Assembly (NCBI RefSeq): GCF_964355755.1
Contig: NC_092676.1
Span: forward strand, 8,161,888 to 8,225,887
From: Antedon mediterranea
Lineage: Eukaryota; Animalia; Echinodermata
DNA length: 64,000 nucleotides
Direction of reading: 5' to 3'
Part shown: positions 7,560 to 15,947 of the stretch, in pieces
Position numbering within the stretch: the first letter of the stretch is position 1
Layout of the letters: each line of letters begins with the position of its first letter
Translations under genes and position numbers: made by a program
Notes under the pieces: generated by a model
The model's input: only the letters and a program-made list of their open reading frames with translations
Databases searched by the model: none
What the model was told of the DNA's origin: nothing

Positions 7560-10500
7560 CTATGTCCATGATAACACTCCAAGCTGCCGTAATCTCATAA
7601 GAACTTCTGAAAAACAATAGGCCGATTATTAAAAATGTATAGTTCTTTTTTTACAAGAAGCTCTCCCGCGGTCACCTAATTTTGTTCCCAAAGATGTTCT
7701 CTGAAAATTCGAAACATTGCAAAATATATGCTTATAACTGAACATAACCTTTATATATTGTTTGAAGGTTTGCATGGCGAAATCAATATCTTGATAATAA
7801 CGTTTGCAGTACACCACGTATAGCCTATAGTTTTAGAAATGTTGCGTTTCTCGACGTTTCGGTCATTTATGTTTTGATCAAAGCTTGTTGATCGAAACGT
7901 CGAGAAACTTAACAGTTCTCTTCAGAATAAATATATGCGTGGTGTACCGCAAACGTTATATGAACATATAAACTAAATATTTCTCTGAAATATAAACAAA
8001 TAAAAAACAGTATGATGGGTTTCGAACTTCAGTATAGTATACCATTCAGCCATAGAACTGGGCGCAGAAAATCGTTGGCATAACCTATTCTAGAATTTTT
8101 ACAGAACGTTTTTAAAAACAAAATGTTCGCTTCCCGGTCACTCATTGTAAGGAGTGCTTAATGGGTCTGGATACAACTTAGGATAAAACTTAGAAACAGT
8201 ATAAGTTTCTTTCAAGGTTTATCACAGAGGGCGCAATGTCAAGATAATATCTTTATAATTGTTCGTTTATACAACCACCAAGATATTTGTTTAAGGAGTG
8301 CTTAATTGGGTCTGGATATAACAAGTCTATTAAACCTTGACTATAGTTTATATAAAAGTTTCTTTTAAGGTTTATCACAGAGGGCGCAATGTCAAGATAA
8401 TGTCTTTGTAATGTGTTCGTATTAATTTTAATATTACATACCTGATATTTTGGTACGTCGTGTTCCTTCTTGTCCTTTTCGTCCTTGAATGGTTTCTGAA
8501 TTGAAAACAATATTATGAAATAATAATAATAATAATAATAACACTACTGTTTAAGCTCGGTCTCTGTTTTTCTAGTTTAAAAAAAAAGTGTGATGGGCAA
8601 AAATATGGTACCGGTAGTGATATGACGTCATCATGTCCATATATGGGCACATCACATTTTGTTGTCACATAAAGTTTGAAAGTGTGGAGACATCATTGTA
8701 ATATTCTGGTCTTGTTTATCAATTTAATAACAAATACAAAGCATATCTCAAGCTTTTCAATTGGGTTGGTTTCGCTAAAACTTTACTTGGTTGTATAGAC
8801 GGCGATTCGGCTTAATATTTGTGCAAAAGAAAAATATTTTGGCACATGCAGCGTTTTATAAACTATACTTGAGCAAAAAACTAGTTTTAGAGGGTAAAAA
8901 TCAAAACGATCGCTTTGTCTATTCACATTTAAAGTCGAAAACAAATCAACAAAATACTAAATAGCATTCCAAAATGCTGTAAATCAATTAAAAGTAAAAG
9001 AATAAAAAAGCTAAAAGTAATGTATGCCACATTAATGTTTGTCCACCAGTCGGCGTTTGAATTTTTGTCTGAATACGAGCTCATGTATTATACGTATGAA
9101 ACGCCATATGTGCCAAAATATTTTTCTTTTACTAATTTCGGCCTAGAACCTAGACTACATAAAAGGAACAATGACTAGACACAAGTGTCACTTTGTATTA
9201 TAATCAACTTACCGGTTTTCAATGCACGTGTCCAGGATGGTGGTCTTCGTGCCGTCCAGACGCGTTTGTTAAATCCATCTAAAATATTCCTATCGGAGTC
9301 TACTACGGACAGTCTCCTAGTAGGATCCAAATGGTCAAGTGGTCTTGCTTGAATCAGATTGGCGCCTTTTGATAACACATCCGGCCACTCTAAATGATCT
9401 GATGGCTCGGAATCGTCACTTTGTGGTTGATTCGATTGTCCTCCTAGTTAAAAAAATAAGACGATATTTAAAGTTACCGCGGGAGATAACATCCAAGTTG
9501 TTTGGTCATGATAAATATAGAAATGAGATCATTTTTTGTAGAATATAAAGGCATGGTTATTTAATTAAATGTATTTATTTAATTTAACTATGCATGATCT
9601 TGAGACAACTGGATACAATGATTACATATGTCACAACGTTGAGGGCTTTCATTTCATTTATTTAAAAAATTCTGCATGGACTGTTCCCAAAAATTTAAAT
9701 GTCTCCATCTACCGCCTGTACTTTACGATTTATCTTTCTGGTAGTTTTGTTGCCAAGAATAAGTGTGTGGATATTTTAATATTTAACATGCATGCTTCTA
9801 TACCTCCATGTTCAAAGATATTATATTGGAATAAATGTAAATTAATTGCTTACCAAATACATTCATATTTGAATCCAGAATTCTATCCTAGAAATGACGA
9901 ACATGTATTGTTTTAGTAAATTCTAGTAATAGTGAATATTCGGCAGTTAATAACACACATCACATTTGACGCATGCGTGTCGAAGTACAATATTCTCACC
10001 AATTCTTAACAACGTCATTAATTCAAATAAACGAAACGTAATCTTACTTAAGACCCCTTTTCCAGAACAACTCGATTGTTACATCATGTCATGCTACTGT
10101 AGCGTAGAAAATCCGCATGTTATGAAGAGTCCTCACTGAATCGGTCGTTTTTGTCGCGATTCTACAGCTCACTATGTCGGTCGGTTGGTCGGTCGGTCGG
10201 TAAACATTAACTCAAATTTGAGCATGCGACTGCAGCCATGTATATGGCCTTGTTTTAATACAATATATAGTTCAACATTGATTGATTGAATAAAAACTTA
10301 CCTCGTCATTGAAGGGCGATTTTAGAAAATGTTCCAGTGGAATTCTTCGCGGGTTTTTGTCAAATAACACACTTTCACCTTTATCCTCTCCTGAAATTTA
10401 AATAGAGACACTCTTTCAATTTAATTACCGTATTTATTCGAATAAACACGAGTGTTTTTAGGGGCATTTATTCGAGTGAGGCGTTGATTTGGGGGAGGCG

Positions 10501-13500: not shown

Positions 13501-15947
13501 TGATTTTTCGATTGTAATCCAATAACATAAGCAATCAGAATGGTGAATAATAAGTTAGTAGCTCATTAATTTACCATCCAACGCTGATAGATTCATAATT
13601 TGATATCCCATCGGTATATTGGTGAATACATTAACCCCATTTAACCTGTATAGTAAGCGTTACGTTGAATAATTAAACATAGTTATATTTGTAATGTTTC
13701 TAATTTTATAATTTCATTCTGGACCAAGTTCGTTAGTTCATGTTCTTTTATTTTATGTTCTTTTTATTTCATGTTCTTTTTATTTCATGTTCTTTTTATT
13801 TCATGTTCATTTATTTTATGTTCATTTATTTCATGATCTTTTATTTTGTTCTTTTATTTCCCATTCTTTTATTTCATGTTCTTTTTATTTCATGTTCTTT
13901 TATTTCATGTTTTTTTATTTCATGTTCATTTATTTTATGTTCATTTATTTTATGTTCATTTATTTTATGTTATTTATTTCATTTTTCCTTATGTCATATT
14001 CTTGCTATTTCATGTTATTTTATTTCATGTTCTTTTTATTTCATCATGTTATTTATTTTTTATGTTCTTTTATTCCATGTTCTTTTATTTTATGTTCATT
14101 TATTTTATGTTCATTTATTTTATGTTATTTATTTCATTTTTCCTTATGTCATATTCTTGCTATTTCATGTTATTTTATTTCATGTTCTTTTTATTTCATC
14201 ATGTTATTTATTTTTTATGTTCTTTTATTCCATGTTCTTTTATTCATGTTCTTTTATTTCATGTTATTTATTCTATGTTCTTTTAGTTCTTATTTCTAAC
14301 CAATTTAATTATTACTTAAAACTTACCTGGAAAATCAGATCTACTTTGTGAGCTACGCTACAAAATGGAAAAATAATAACAATTCACGTTAAAAGTTGTA
14401 GTCGTTTCTCTTTCAAGAATTGGAAGACAATGACATAGTTAGCATACTTATGTAACTATATATACCAACTACATTAATAGAGGTGCTTATTAAGCCTCAC
14501 ATTGTATTGAACCAAACGGTCGAAAATAACATTATTTTCTTCTTTGGAAAAATACTAAAAATCATGATGAAAACGTATTGTAATAAATTTCAAAAAATCT
14601 CCTATAAGAGTGAAAAGTTTGTTTGAAACTTAAGTCGGACGAGTGCTCATGTGTGACGAACAAAAGACAGGATACACAGAAATAAAGAAAACAAAAAAAA
14701 AGTAGAAAACAGAAAACTAACATTAAGAATGTTGATGTTGATTTTGAAGTCGAAACTAAGTAAAATGCAGACTAATGAATCTAGTCATATAGAGATAATA
14801 ACCTCTTTCCATGCTTATGCCTACTACTTATATGTTGAAGTGGGGGAAAGTATTTTCTCTGGTGGAAGCAAACTGTATAACATATAGGCCTACCTGACCG
14901 TAAAGTACTAGTGTCCGTTTTCCTATTGGTCGTGGGCGAGCACTCCATGTTCGTATGTATATTTTGTTAAGATAATCTTCTTTCTTGGTCATAGAATCTT
15001 CGATTTTAATTTCTGCCAATGACAAATTAATGGTCATTTCGATGTCCACATCTGTAGACCTAATTTCATAGGGTACTCACAGTTATCGCTAACTTTGGTG
15101 GGTAAAGCCAACTCACCCGGGGTAAATATATCTAAGCCTACTGTACTCTGTATTAAATCGGCTAATTTTTAAATGGACTACTTTTTAAAATTTGTATTTC
15201 AATAATGAACCCGAAGGAAACACTTTATGACCCAATGTATCGCCTTTGTACAGGTTCTATTCTATAATGAATCTGTATAATATTTAAAAAATTATTACGC
15301 ATAATAATACTAGAAATAAGGTTTTAAGTTTTTTTTGTAACACACGTAGCCTTGTATATAATGAACTCACTTAAGTTTAAGTGCCATATGTTTTAGTAGG
15401 TTAAGAAGAAAATGATATGACGTCATTCGTGCTTTATTTTAATTGGTAAACAAAACATAGATTGTTTCTTTAAATAGAACAGTTATTACCTTATAGTACC
15501 CGATGGCTCGTGTCCCAAGCATGTTACTCAAGAATGAGCGTATAGTGGTCATTCGGTATGATACCAGGGATAGGGATGGGTTCGAGCAATTTCCATTCGT
15601 AAACGGGAGCTGCGTATTTAACAAGTCTGCCTTTTTTTTATTACCCTGACGCAAAATGATTAGGCCCTACTCATACATTTAATTAAAATGGTTATTATTA
15701 ATACATTACTCACTCGAAAGGGTGTTTGTTCCTTCGCCATCCTAAAAAATAAAACATGTAATGAAAAAATAGAATCGTTTATAGGTTGATATTGATGTTT
15801 CTATCGAACGTTTTGGTTTTTATAGGCCATAATAATAAATTCAAAATAAACTGTACTCACAGAATTCATTGTTGAACACAGTACAACCAATAAGCTAAAA
15901 AGAACATACTTTAATGCGTTTGATACTACCATCGTATTCTTCCACAT
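7560..15947 (-). CDS. Secreted neuropeptide-precursor-like protein, 190 aa, 7 coding exons; candidate galanin/spexin-like precursor
   Basis: Minus-strand exons 15947-15861, 14357-14327, 10390-10302, 9887-9854, 9443-9213, 8495-8442 and 7606-7560. All introns are GT-AG with consistent phases (0,1,0,1,1,1); total 573 nt. Protein: [190 protein letters not shown]. It has a signal peptide, an acidic propeptide, and KR and G-RK sites. The confidence is for the gene model; the family assignment is less certain. Confidence 0.72.
8150..8410. repeat. Direct duplication of about 145 bp in an intron
   Basis: taaggagtgcttaa..gggtctggata...aaggtttatcacagagggcgcaatgtcaagataa occurs twice. Confidence 0.7.
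10427..10752. mobile_element. Tc1/mariner(pogo)-like MITE remnant
   Basis: TA|CCGTATTTATTCGAATAAAC start, with subterminal gtttattcga/gggaggcgtttatt repeats at the other end. Confidence 0.5.
10976..11142. repeat. (TA)n microsatellite
   Basis: Long TA run; a second (TA)n tract lies at about 11612-11722. Confidence 0.95.
11429..11500 (+). tRNA. tRNA-like gene or pseudogene / SINE head (Pro-like body, TGT at the anticodon position)
   Basis: GGCTCTGTGGTCTAGTGGTATGATACTCGCCCTGTAAGCGAGAGGTTGCAGGTTCGAATCCTGCCAGAGACA folds into a cloverleaf with A and B boxes and is followed by T6. It has one acceptor-stem mismatch and C at position 33. Confidence 0.5.
11848..11890 (-). ncRNA. Minimal hammerhead-ribozyme-like motif in a Penelope-like terminal remnant
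   Basis: The minus strand reads ttgca-CTGATGA-agggc-tagtgtt-gccc-GAAA-gcTC-tgtt: both core boxes, stem II, and a minimal stem III. Confidence 0.45.
13735..14290. repeat. T-rich minisatellite (~13-15-bp unit TTTTATTTCATGTTC) with a higher-order duplication
   Basis: Tandem units are visible directly and explain the three F/Y/M-rich ORFs. The block catttttccttatgtcatattcttgc occurs twice. Confidence 0.9.

What the first reader, a model, noticed from the sequence alone, without database searches (positions are those of the whole stretch)
7560..15947. Hidden multi-exon neuropeptide precursor with galanin/spexin-like hallmarks
Seen in sequence: seven phase-consistent exons (four under 60 nt, so nearly invisible in the ORF track) encode a signal peptide, an acidic propeptide, and [25 protein letters not shown]. 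This predicts an amidated 20-mer starting xWT and ending LK...Q-amide. Established knowledge: galanin begins GWT (GWTLNSAGYLLGP) and spexin is NWTPQAMLYLKGAQ followed by GRR. To my knowledge no galanin/spexin-type ligand has been established in echinoderms. Inference: this is a divergent echinoderm galanin/spexin-type precursor, or else a new neuropeptide family. Caveats: the galanin/spexin Tyr-Leu core is absent, RK is a weaker processing site than KR, and the internal RR is followed by Pro (usually not cleaved).
Basis: partly seen in the sequence, partly recalled or inferred. Interest (0 to 1): 0.92.

Follow-up and report, generated by a model that had tools for sequence, protein, structure and literature searches.

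The report
Feather-star peptide precursor beside kisspeptin
A real, spliced feather-star gene lying next to the kisspeptin gene encodes an undescribed protein predicted to release two small signalling peptides, and it is a possible but unproven candidate for the galanin-type signal still missing in echinoderms.

Summary
The gene is real, but it has nine coding exons, not seven. One spliced RNA contig and the NCBI model for Antedon mediterranea agree on this. One missed exon carries a second candidate peptide, xWSxxPRPI followed by G-KR. The spexin-like 'LK...Q-amide' hallmark therefore fails, and the Tyr-Leu core is absent. The gene lies 4.2 kb from kisspeptin precursor 1, and probably close to it in Anneissia too; vertebrate spexin and galanin-like genes share linkage groups with kisspeptin genes. 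No relative was found outside these two crinoids, and it is not in the published crinoid neuropeptide list. Verdict: an undescribed, probably neuropeptide, precursor; not filed as galanin or spexin; about 25% that it is the missing echinoderm galanin-type ligand.

The parts
15861..15947 (-). Coding exon 1 (87 nt, phase 0 out): predicted signal peptide, P0001 residues 15-43
   Evidence: Joint to exon 2 in two X1 contigs; Kyte-Doolittle peak 2.86 at residue 29; SignalP not available
15714..15741 (-). Coding exon 2 (28 nt, phase 0 to 1)
   Evidence: Joints; 5 of 9 residues identical in Anneissia
14894..15012 (-). Coding exon 3 (119 nt, phase 1 to 0), absent from a seven-exon model; carries peptide A
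   Evidence: Contig piece 14894-15012 with both joints; 24 of 40 identical in Anneissia
14915..14950 (-). Peptide A, short form (residues 74-82, xWSxxPRPI) plus the G-KR amidation and cleavage site (83-85); a long form from residue 44 is possible
   Evidence: 9 of 12 identical in Anneissia, 20 of 39 for residues 44-82; coordinates; processing predicted
14327..14357 (-). Coding exon 4 (31 nt, phase 0 to 1), absent from a seven-exon model
   Evidence: Joint 14357/14894 and loose end at 14326
10302..10390 (-). Coding exon 5 (89 nt, phase 1 to 0), spacer
   Evidence: Loose-end letters match it
9854..9887 (-). Coding exon 6 (34 nt, phase 0 to 1), spacer
   Evidence: Contig length arithmetic; P0001
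9213..9443 (-). Coding exon 7 (231 nt, phase 1 to 1): acidic spacer, KR and the core of peptide B
   Evidence: Contig piece 9213-9442
9214..9267 (-). KR (203-204) plus the conserved core of peptide B (205-220)
   Evidence: 16 of 18 identical in Anneissia, which has one extra Tyr
8442..8495 (-). Coding exon 8 (54 nt, phase 1 to 1): unconserved tail of peptide B, G-RK at 8484-8476, start of the C-terminal peptide
   Evidence: 54-nt gap in the contig; residues 221-227 have 0 of 7 identities
7560..7606 (-). Coding exon 9 (47 nt to the stop); the transcript runs on to at least 7345
   Evidence: Contig piece 7345-7606; 7 of 15 identical; low-confidence helix at 237-246
20578..20610 (-). Upstream exon with an in-frame ATG used by the NCBI model; with the 9 nt before 15947 it adds 14 residues
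   Evidence: Located; not covered by the read layouts, untested
2414..3366 (+). Neighbour: kisspeptin precursor 1 gene (coding exons 2414-2498 and 2882-3366), tail to tail, stop codons 4,194 bp apart
   Evidence: Translation matches AmKPP1 in the supplement of PMC9793003; distance

Best explanation
This is a spliced nine-exon feather-star gene next to the kisspeptin gene, and its protein is predicted to be secreted and cut into two amidated tryptophan-bearing peptides that likely act as neuropeptides on a receptor of the galanin/kisspeptin branch. Shown: the exons, the splicing, the conserved blocks and the neighbour. Inferred from standard prohormone chemistry: the N-terminal hydrophobic stretch sends it into the secretory path; convertases cut after KR; carboxypeptidase trims; the amidating enzyme turns the Gly into an amide. 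This would give peptide A (ending PRPI-amide; 9 residues if the single Arg73 is cut, up to 39 if only the signal peptide is), peptide B (16-17 conserved residues from xWT, ending at the conserved Thr in Anneissia and four residues later in Antedon) and a conserved C-terminal peptide of about 26 residues. The information of peptide B lies in its N-terminal core, not its tail. Inferred, least sure: the gene is a diverged local paralogue from the old kisspeptin/galanin/spexin gene cluster, so the likeliest targets are the orphan galanin/allatostatin-A-type or kisspeptin-type receptors. About 0.85 that it is a neuropeptide precursor at all, and about 0.4 for the whole statement.
For: Splicing. Selective conservation: residues 74-85 9 of 12, 203-220 16 of 18, 228-253 13 of 26, spacer 93-202 35 of 110. 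G-KR after peptide A is in register in both species, and both have Gly plus two basic residues within 7 residues after core B (chance 0.06 each by shuffling the 18 residues). Disorder: pLDDT 33.8 and 0.45. Language-model neighbours: 9 of 10 listed rows are neuropeptide precursor clusters, with galanin at rank 7, score 0.88 (under 0.9, a lead only). Linkage: 4,194 bp from KPP1 here. In Anneissia the two proteins are XP_033102626.1 and XP_033102639.1. In 12 of 24 rows seen, accessions 2-16 apart shared a scaffold, and a gap of 13 or less has about a 0.08% chance. Vertebrate SPX1+KISS2, SPX2+GAL and KISS3+GALP share linkage groups and are proposed tandem duplicates (PMC4131245). Galanin and spexin mature peptides are also split between two exons, and galanin's is followed by a C-terminal peptide. 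Galanin/AstA receptors lack a ligand in echinoderms. Galanin and spexin share no sequence with their insect counterparts, so ligand divergence across phyla is expected.
Against: Tyr-Leu core absent in both species; LK and Q-amide not conserved; no Pfam galanin or spexin match at E up to 10. Nine coding exons and two peptides, against six exons and one mature peptide in galanin and spexin. No homologue outside two crinoids: 2 hits among 1.84 billion representatives, 2 of 238, 1 of 22 and 0 of 149 candidates. A bilaterian family should have members in starfish and urchins, though one search missed even the Anneissia orthologue, so sensitivity is low. The top Atlas hits are CAPA (0.91) and PBAN (0.89), not galanin; for residues 165-253 alone galanin falls to 0.75 at rank 26. 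Neuropeptide genes of different families can be near neighbours: Anneissia KPP2 and luqin-1 are 98 kb apart. Small phase-1 exons are not specific: Anneissia KPP2 has phases 0,1,1,1,1. No GOLT, GYS, KCNJ or other marker of the vertebrate region among the ORFs scanned. The Anneissia model has no hydrophobic N-terminus (3 of 29 identical), probably a mispredicted first exon but unverified. Same scaffold in Anneissia is inferred from accession numbers, not seen. No tissue, peptide or receptor data.
Confidence: 0.4

Rival explanations
1. It is a neuropeptide precursor of a family restricted to crinoids and unrelated to galanin, spexin or kisspeptin. It is processed the same way, but the place beside KPP1 and the xWT start are coincidence.
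For: No homologue outside Antedon and Anneissia; no Pfam or PDB match of note; PMC9793003 found no homologues elsewhere for PCNP2-20; neuropeptide genes of different families can lie close.
Against: Being the immediate neighbour of a kisspeptin gene, probably in two genera, is unlikely by chance, and it is the neighbourhood in which vertebrate relatives lie. The searches are weak for short motifs.
Confidence: 0.33
2. Peptide A is a diverged member of another known family. It could be the neuromedin-U/CAPA/pyrokinin (PRX-amide) ligand that is also missing in echinoderms or, in its long form next to the signal peptide, a second PrRP/NPY-like peptide.
For: Best Atlas hits are CAPA 0.91 and PBAN 0.89; NmU/CAPA receptors are orphan in ambulacrarians. 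Residues 44-82 follow the signal peptide, are 39 long, are 20 of 39 conserved and hold a phase-1 intron near their N-terminus, as PrRP genes do.
Against: The end is P-R-P-I-amide, one Pro more than PRX-amide (motif recalled) and not RF/RY-amide; no intron in the C-terminal Arg codon as in NPY/NPF genes; NPY/NPF signalling is reported lost in echinoderms and crinoids already have a PrRP precursor. The Atlas tool warns that only 1 of its ten best family hits agrees with the best family.
Confidence: 0.13
3. It is a non-neural secreted precursor of cationic Pro/Arg/Trp-rich defence peptides, released at the same basic sites and acting on microbes, not on a receptor.
For: The 20-residue peptide B and the C-terminal 27 residues each carry net charge +4 after an acidic spacer of -7; PRP motifs and a Trp at position 2 recall insect proline-rich and sea-urchin antimicrobial peptides (recalled, not tested); a lectin gene lies 9 kb away.
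Against: Near-invariant short cores in a drifting precursor fit receptor ligands better; 9 of 10 listed Atlas neighbours are neuropeptide precursors and none is named as antimicrobial; no extra copy was seen among the exon candidates and long ORFs of the window.
Confidence: 0.12

Closest known systems
Vertebrate spexin (SPX1/SPX2) and galanin/GALP precursors
   Different: No Tyr-Leu core; the Q-amide tail is not conserved; nine coding exons against six exons; an extra upstream amidated peptide; 239-253 residues against 116 for chicken spexin; no Pfam match.
Crinoid kisspeptin precursor 1 (AmKPP1, the neighbour)
   Same: Two predicted amidated peptides; the first ends Pro-hydrophobic before G-KR; adjacent gene.
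   Different: KP1.1 ends RxLPF-amide and KP1.2 PF-amide, against PRPI-amide; two coding exons against nine; no KPP1 protein among the hits.
CAPA / pyrokinin / PBAN / neuromedin-U (PRX-amide) precursors
   Same: Several peptides per precursor; a Trp upstream of a Pro-Arg near an aliphatic amide (recalled); top Atlas neighbours.
   Different: An extra Pro before the last residue; no Phe in the core; no Pfam PBAN or NMU match.
PrRP/sNPF-type and NPY/NPF-type precursors
   Same: A 39-residue segment directly after the signal peptide, ending in G-KR, with a phase-1 intron near its start.
   Different: No RF/RY-amide; an extra phase-0 intron right after the signal peptide; no intron in the C-terminal Arg codon; a second peptide downstream.
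Predicted crinoid neuropeptide precursors PCNP1-20 (PMC9793003)
   Same: Same animal group and the same criteria: signal peptide, dibasic sites, Gly for amidation.
   Different: Not among them: both parts of supplementary file 2 read and all 7 files searched.

Membership tests
Neuropeptide precursor (general) | N-terminal signal peptide | tested here: inconclusive
   Hydrophobic peak at residues 28-41 in Antedon; none in the Anneissia model; SignalP not available
Neuropeptide precursor (general) | Short conserved peptides bounded by basic sites, with Gly for amidation, in a drifting disordered precursor | tested here: met
Neuropeptide precursor (general) | Neural expression and mature peptides detected | not testable with these tools
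   One contig-level RNA run of unstated tissue
Galanin/spexin | xWT directly after a dibasic site | tested here: met
Galanin/spexin | Tyr-Leu core at positions 9-10 of the mature peptide | tested here: not met
   Positions 9-10 are Ser-Trp in Antedon and Pro-Ser in Anneissia; family motif recalled
Galanin/spexin | Spexin-type LK...Q-amide end | tested here: not met
   LK is LN in Anneissia; residues 221-227 have 0 of 7 identities
Galanin/spexin | Match to the family profile | tested here: not met
   No such family at E up to 10 for either protein or for the exon ORFs; HMMER filters drop most matches above about 0.1
Galanin/spexin | Mature peptide split by an intron | tested here: met
   Phase-1 intron after residue 220; vertebrate peptides span exons 3 and 4; the vertebrate intron phase was not checked
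Galanin/spexin | Six-exon gene with one mature peptide | tested here: not met
   Nine coding exons, two candidate amidated peptides
Galanin/spexin | Linkage with a kisspeptin gene | tested here: met
   4,194 bp from KPP1; Anneissia linkage inferred from accession numbers; vertebrate pattern
Galanin/spexin | Flanking marker genes of the KISS/GAL/SPX region (GOLT, GYS, KCNJ, PPFIA, CMAS, REN) | tested here: inconclusive
   Markers; none among 11 and 102 ORFs scanned in this 64-kb window; no whole genome held
Galanin/spexin | Activates a galanin/AstA-type receptor | not testable with these tools
   Needs a cell assay
Echinoderm kisspeptin (KP1) | C-terminal RxLPF-amide or PF-amide | tested here: not met
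   Peptide A ends PRPI; motif
PRX-amide (NmU/CAPA/pyrokinin) | C-terminal Pro-Arg-X-amide | tested here: not met
   Pro-Arg-Pro-Ile-amide in both species; motif recalled
PrRP / NPY-NPF | C-terminal RF- or RY-amide | tested here: not met
PrRP / NPY-NPF | Peptide next to the signal peptide with a phase-1 intron in its N-terminal part (PrRP) | tested here: met
   Only for the long form, residues 44-82; intron after residue 52

The most novel reading that the evidence does not exclude
This is the missing echinoderm ligand gene for the galanin/allatostatin-A-type receptor. It would be a survivor of the ancestral kisspeptin-galanin-spexin tandem cluster, still beside kisspeptin, which kept only the xWT start and the split-peptide layout and carries a second amidated peptide. 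That would date the cluster to before the split of chordates and ambulacrarians.
Probability: 0.25. Interest if true: 0.85.

Novelty: new variant of a known kind. Interest (0 to 1): 0.66.

Why it matters
Echinoderms have galanin/allatostatin-A-type receptors with no known ligand (PMC5860471; 10.1101/129783), and my searches listed no later paper whose title or abstract start reports one. This locus gives two short synthesizable peptides and a positional rule (look next to the kisspeptin gene) that make the question directly testable. Even if unrelated to galanin, it is a conserved two-peptide precursor missing from the crinoid neuropeptide survey.

Tried and rejected
Seven-exon model: open, but the contig holds nine exons; a minor skipped form is not excluded, since contigs drop rare variants. 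Other exon candidates, such as 15645-15490 and 14554-14501, are skipped by the contig's joints. Known crinoid precursor: not in the 7 supplementary files of PMC9793003 (file 2 read whole; figures not held). Known sea-cucumber precursor: two motifs absent from 3 supplementary files of PMC6586643. PRPI-amide in print: 0 papers. Starfish Arnp18-25 and brittle-star Ovnp18/26/27 do not fit by their descriptions; their sequences are in figures that I could not see. Homologues beyond crinoids: none; metagenome scan, 589 pattern matches and none confirmed. PDB: chance matches only, best E 0.3 and 5.7. AlphaFold2 on two sequences: pLDDT 33.8, no fold search run. Internal duplication of peptides A and B: the best self-match in P0001 is exactly 73-87 against 204-218, but 26 of 300 shuffles reach it, and it is not the best match in P0002 (98 of 300); cross-species 79 of 150; kept as a hint only. 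Accession look-up in PMC9400282: 12 of 20 supplementary files searched, nothing found. No run was on record as RNA; X1 was shown to hold spliced contigs only by laying it. Earlier findings: none by place or sequence. Complex prediction not used: no echinoderm receptor sequence was in hand and the peptides are under 30 residues. Direct alignment to galanin, spexin, PrRP or antimicrobial peptide sequences was not run, because no tool returned them; those comparisons rest on profile scans, paper passages and recall.

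
Full report
Organism and gene. A search with the 76-residue ORF of the largest exon found one protein among 22 candidates, 100% identical: an uncharacterized 253-residue protein of the feather star Antedon mediterranea, XP_071954967.1. A splice-site scan of the minus strand and a script show that residues 15-253 are encoded by nine GT-AG exons: 15947-15861, 15741-15714, 15012-14894, 14357-14327, 10390-10302, 9887-9854, 9443-9213, 8495-8442 and 7606-7560, with intron phases 0,1,0,1,0,1,1,1. 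The first 11 residues of the NCBI model lie in an exon at 20610-20578 that I did not test.

RNA. Five runs were listed, none on record as RNA; three were laid on 1700-10950 and two on 14300-16800. Run X1 has an 847-nt contig with pieces at 7345-7606, 9213-9442 and 14894-15012, joints 14357/14894 and 15012/15714 with CT..AC ends, and a loose end at 14326 that reads into the 10390 exon. Two shorter contigs give the joint to exon 1. The gaps are 54 nt, and 34+89+31 nt, as the nine-exon model needs. DNA run X2 has none of these three joints. So the nine-exon form is transcribed and spliced. Tissue and level are unknown, and this is one study. X1 differs from the window at 9392 (L161S, in the spacer) and 7575 (silent).

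Orthologue. The full-length search gave 2 hits among 238 candidates: P0001 and Anneissia japonica LOC117105569, 43% identical. phmmer over 1.84 billion representatives gave the same 2 at E up to 0.001; a profile search of proteins of 30-132 residues gave 0 of 149. Anneissia has G-KK directly after the conserved Thr. Exon 8 has the same number of residues before the shared GTR in both species, so the amidation site has moved and was not inherited in place. Each site alone has a 0.06 chance in a shuffle of those 18 residues. The Anneissia model lacks a hydrophobic N-terminus. Similarity starts at the exon-2 border, so its first exon is probably mispredicted, but this is unverified.

How it likely works. 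A single hydrophobic segment (peak 2.86), no fold, an acidic spacer and conserved short blocks bounded by KR and G-KR are the layout of a prohormone. Processing by convertases, carboxypeptidase and the amidating enzyme is established knowledge applied by inference. Peptide A has the cleaner C-terminal signal; its N-terminus is uncertain, because it rests on a single Arg, and residues 44-73 are also 14 of 30 conserved. Peptide B has the cleaner N-terminal signal, and its internal RR is followed by Pro in both species. Nine of the ten rows that the ESM Atlas listed by features are neuropeptide precursor clusters (CAPA 0.91, PBAN 0.89, FMRFamide-like 0.89, galanin 0.88 at rank 7, TRH, tachykinin, CCAP, DH31); this supports the class and not a family. 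For residues 165-253 alone all scores were 0.84 or lower.

The neighbour. The ORF at 2800-3366 with the exon at 2414-2498 is AmKPP1 as printed in the supplement of PMC9793003; the stop codons are 4,194 bp apart, tail to tail. In Anneissia, KPP1 is XP_033102626.1 / LOC117105555 on NW_022705477.1 and the orthologue is XP_033102639.1 / LOC117105569. In the 12 of 24 rows I saw, three genes with accessions 2-16 apart shared one scaffold, 78-380 kb apart, and genes on different scaffolds were at least 380 numbers apart. Same scaffold is therefore likely, adjacency unproven. PMC4131245 reports vertebrate linkage groups SPX1+KISS2, SPX2+GAL and KISS3+GALP, and a tandem origin before the genome duplications. 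Against over-reading this: Anneissia KPP2 and luqin-1 are 98 kb apart, and KPP2 itself has six small coding exons with phases 0,1,1,1,1. No marker gene of the vertebrate region appeared among 11 ORFs and 102 ORFs. The latter were 102 of 115 picked by composition from 527; the 13 left out lie in the lectin region, whose three long ORFs were scanned.

Membership. Galanin/spexin: met for xWT after KR, the split peptide and kisspeptin linkage; not met for the Tyr-Leu core, the LK...Q-amide end, the profile match and the exon number. I do not file it in the family. Kisspeptin, PRX-amide and PrRP/NPY motifs each fail at the C-terminus, though each shares something with peptide A.

Literature seen. 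PMC9793003: abstract, sections 26 and 36, supplementary file 2 whole, rows of file 3, searches of all 7 files; figures not held. PMC4131245: part 2 of 4 of the text. Passages only: PMC9400282 (plus 12 of 20 supplementary files searched), PMC4772807, PMC5860471, PMC12509031, 10.1101/265579, 10.1101/129783, PMC9673105, PMC5818035, PMC4489612, PMC12811797, PMC6475428, PMC7314547, PMC6586643 (plus 3 supplementary files searched). Kim et al. 2014 was seen only as cited. Supplements of bioRxiv preprints were not seen, and peptide sequences in figures could not be read, so a starfish or brittle-star relative printed only there would have been missed. That no echinoderm galanin-type ligand is in print rests on statements of 2017 and on searches of an open-access library.

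Verdict. Observation partly confirmed (real gene, nine exons, two candidate peptides). Interpretation partly supported. New variant of a known kind, interest 0.66. Probabilities: diverged paralogue of the kisspeptin/galanin/spexin cluster 0.4 (of which ligand of the galanin-type receptor 0.25), unrelated crinoid family 0.33, other known family 0.13, defence peptide 0.12.

Noticed in passing
window 8484-8483 (-): An AG 12 nt inside exon 8 would, if used as acceptor, put G-RK directly after the conserved Thr220, the same place as G-KK in Anneissia. The one contig seen uses the longer form.
   Followed up: partly
window 14894-14914 (-): The seven residues after peptide A's G-KR are 6 of 7 identical in Anneissia and end at the exon border; a third peptide start or a processing signal is possible.
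   Followed up: no
window 15741-9213 (-): Small phase 0-to-1 exons (28, 31, 34 nt) alternate three times with larger phase-1 exons, as if a two-exon module had been repeated; the sequence self-match is not significant.
   Followed up: partly
window 11428-11501 (+): tRNA-Thr(UGU) called inside the intron between exons 4 and 5, between two (TA)n tracts and flanked by inverted copies of a short stretch; may be a tRNA-derived element.
   Followed up: no
window 25092-26801 (+): Three exons, each with a SUEL rhamnose/galactose-binding lectin domain.
   Followed up: no
window 30982-31164 (-) and 37125-37298 (-): A Kazal protease-inhibitor domain and a Myb/SANT-like domain.
   Followed up: no
window 51248-52258 (-): A 336-codon exon-like ORF, charged and with internal repeats, without a Pfam match.
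   Followed up: no
Anneissia NW_022712725.1, 2293400-2307057 (coordinates): The crinoid KPP2 gene has six coding exons with phases 0,1,1,1,1, whereas starfish KPP2 is reported as a single exon; it lies 98 kb from the luqin-1 gene.
   Followed up: partly
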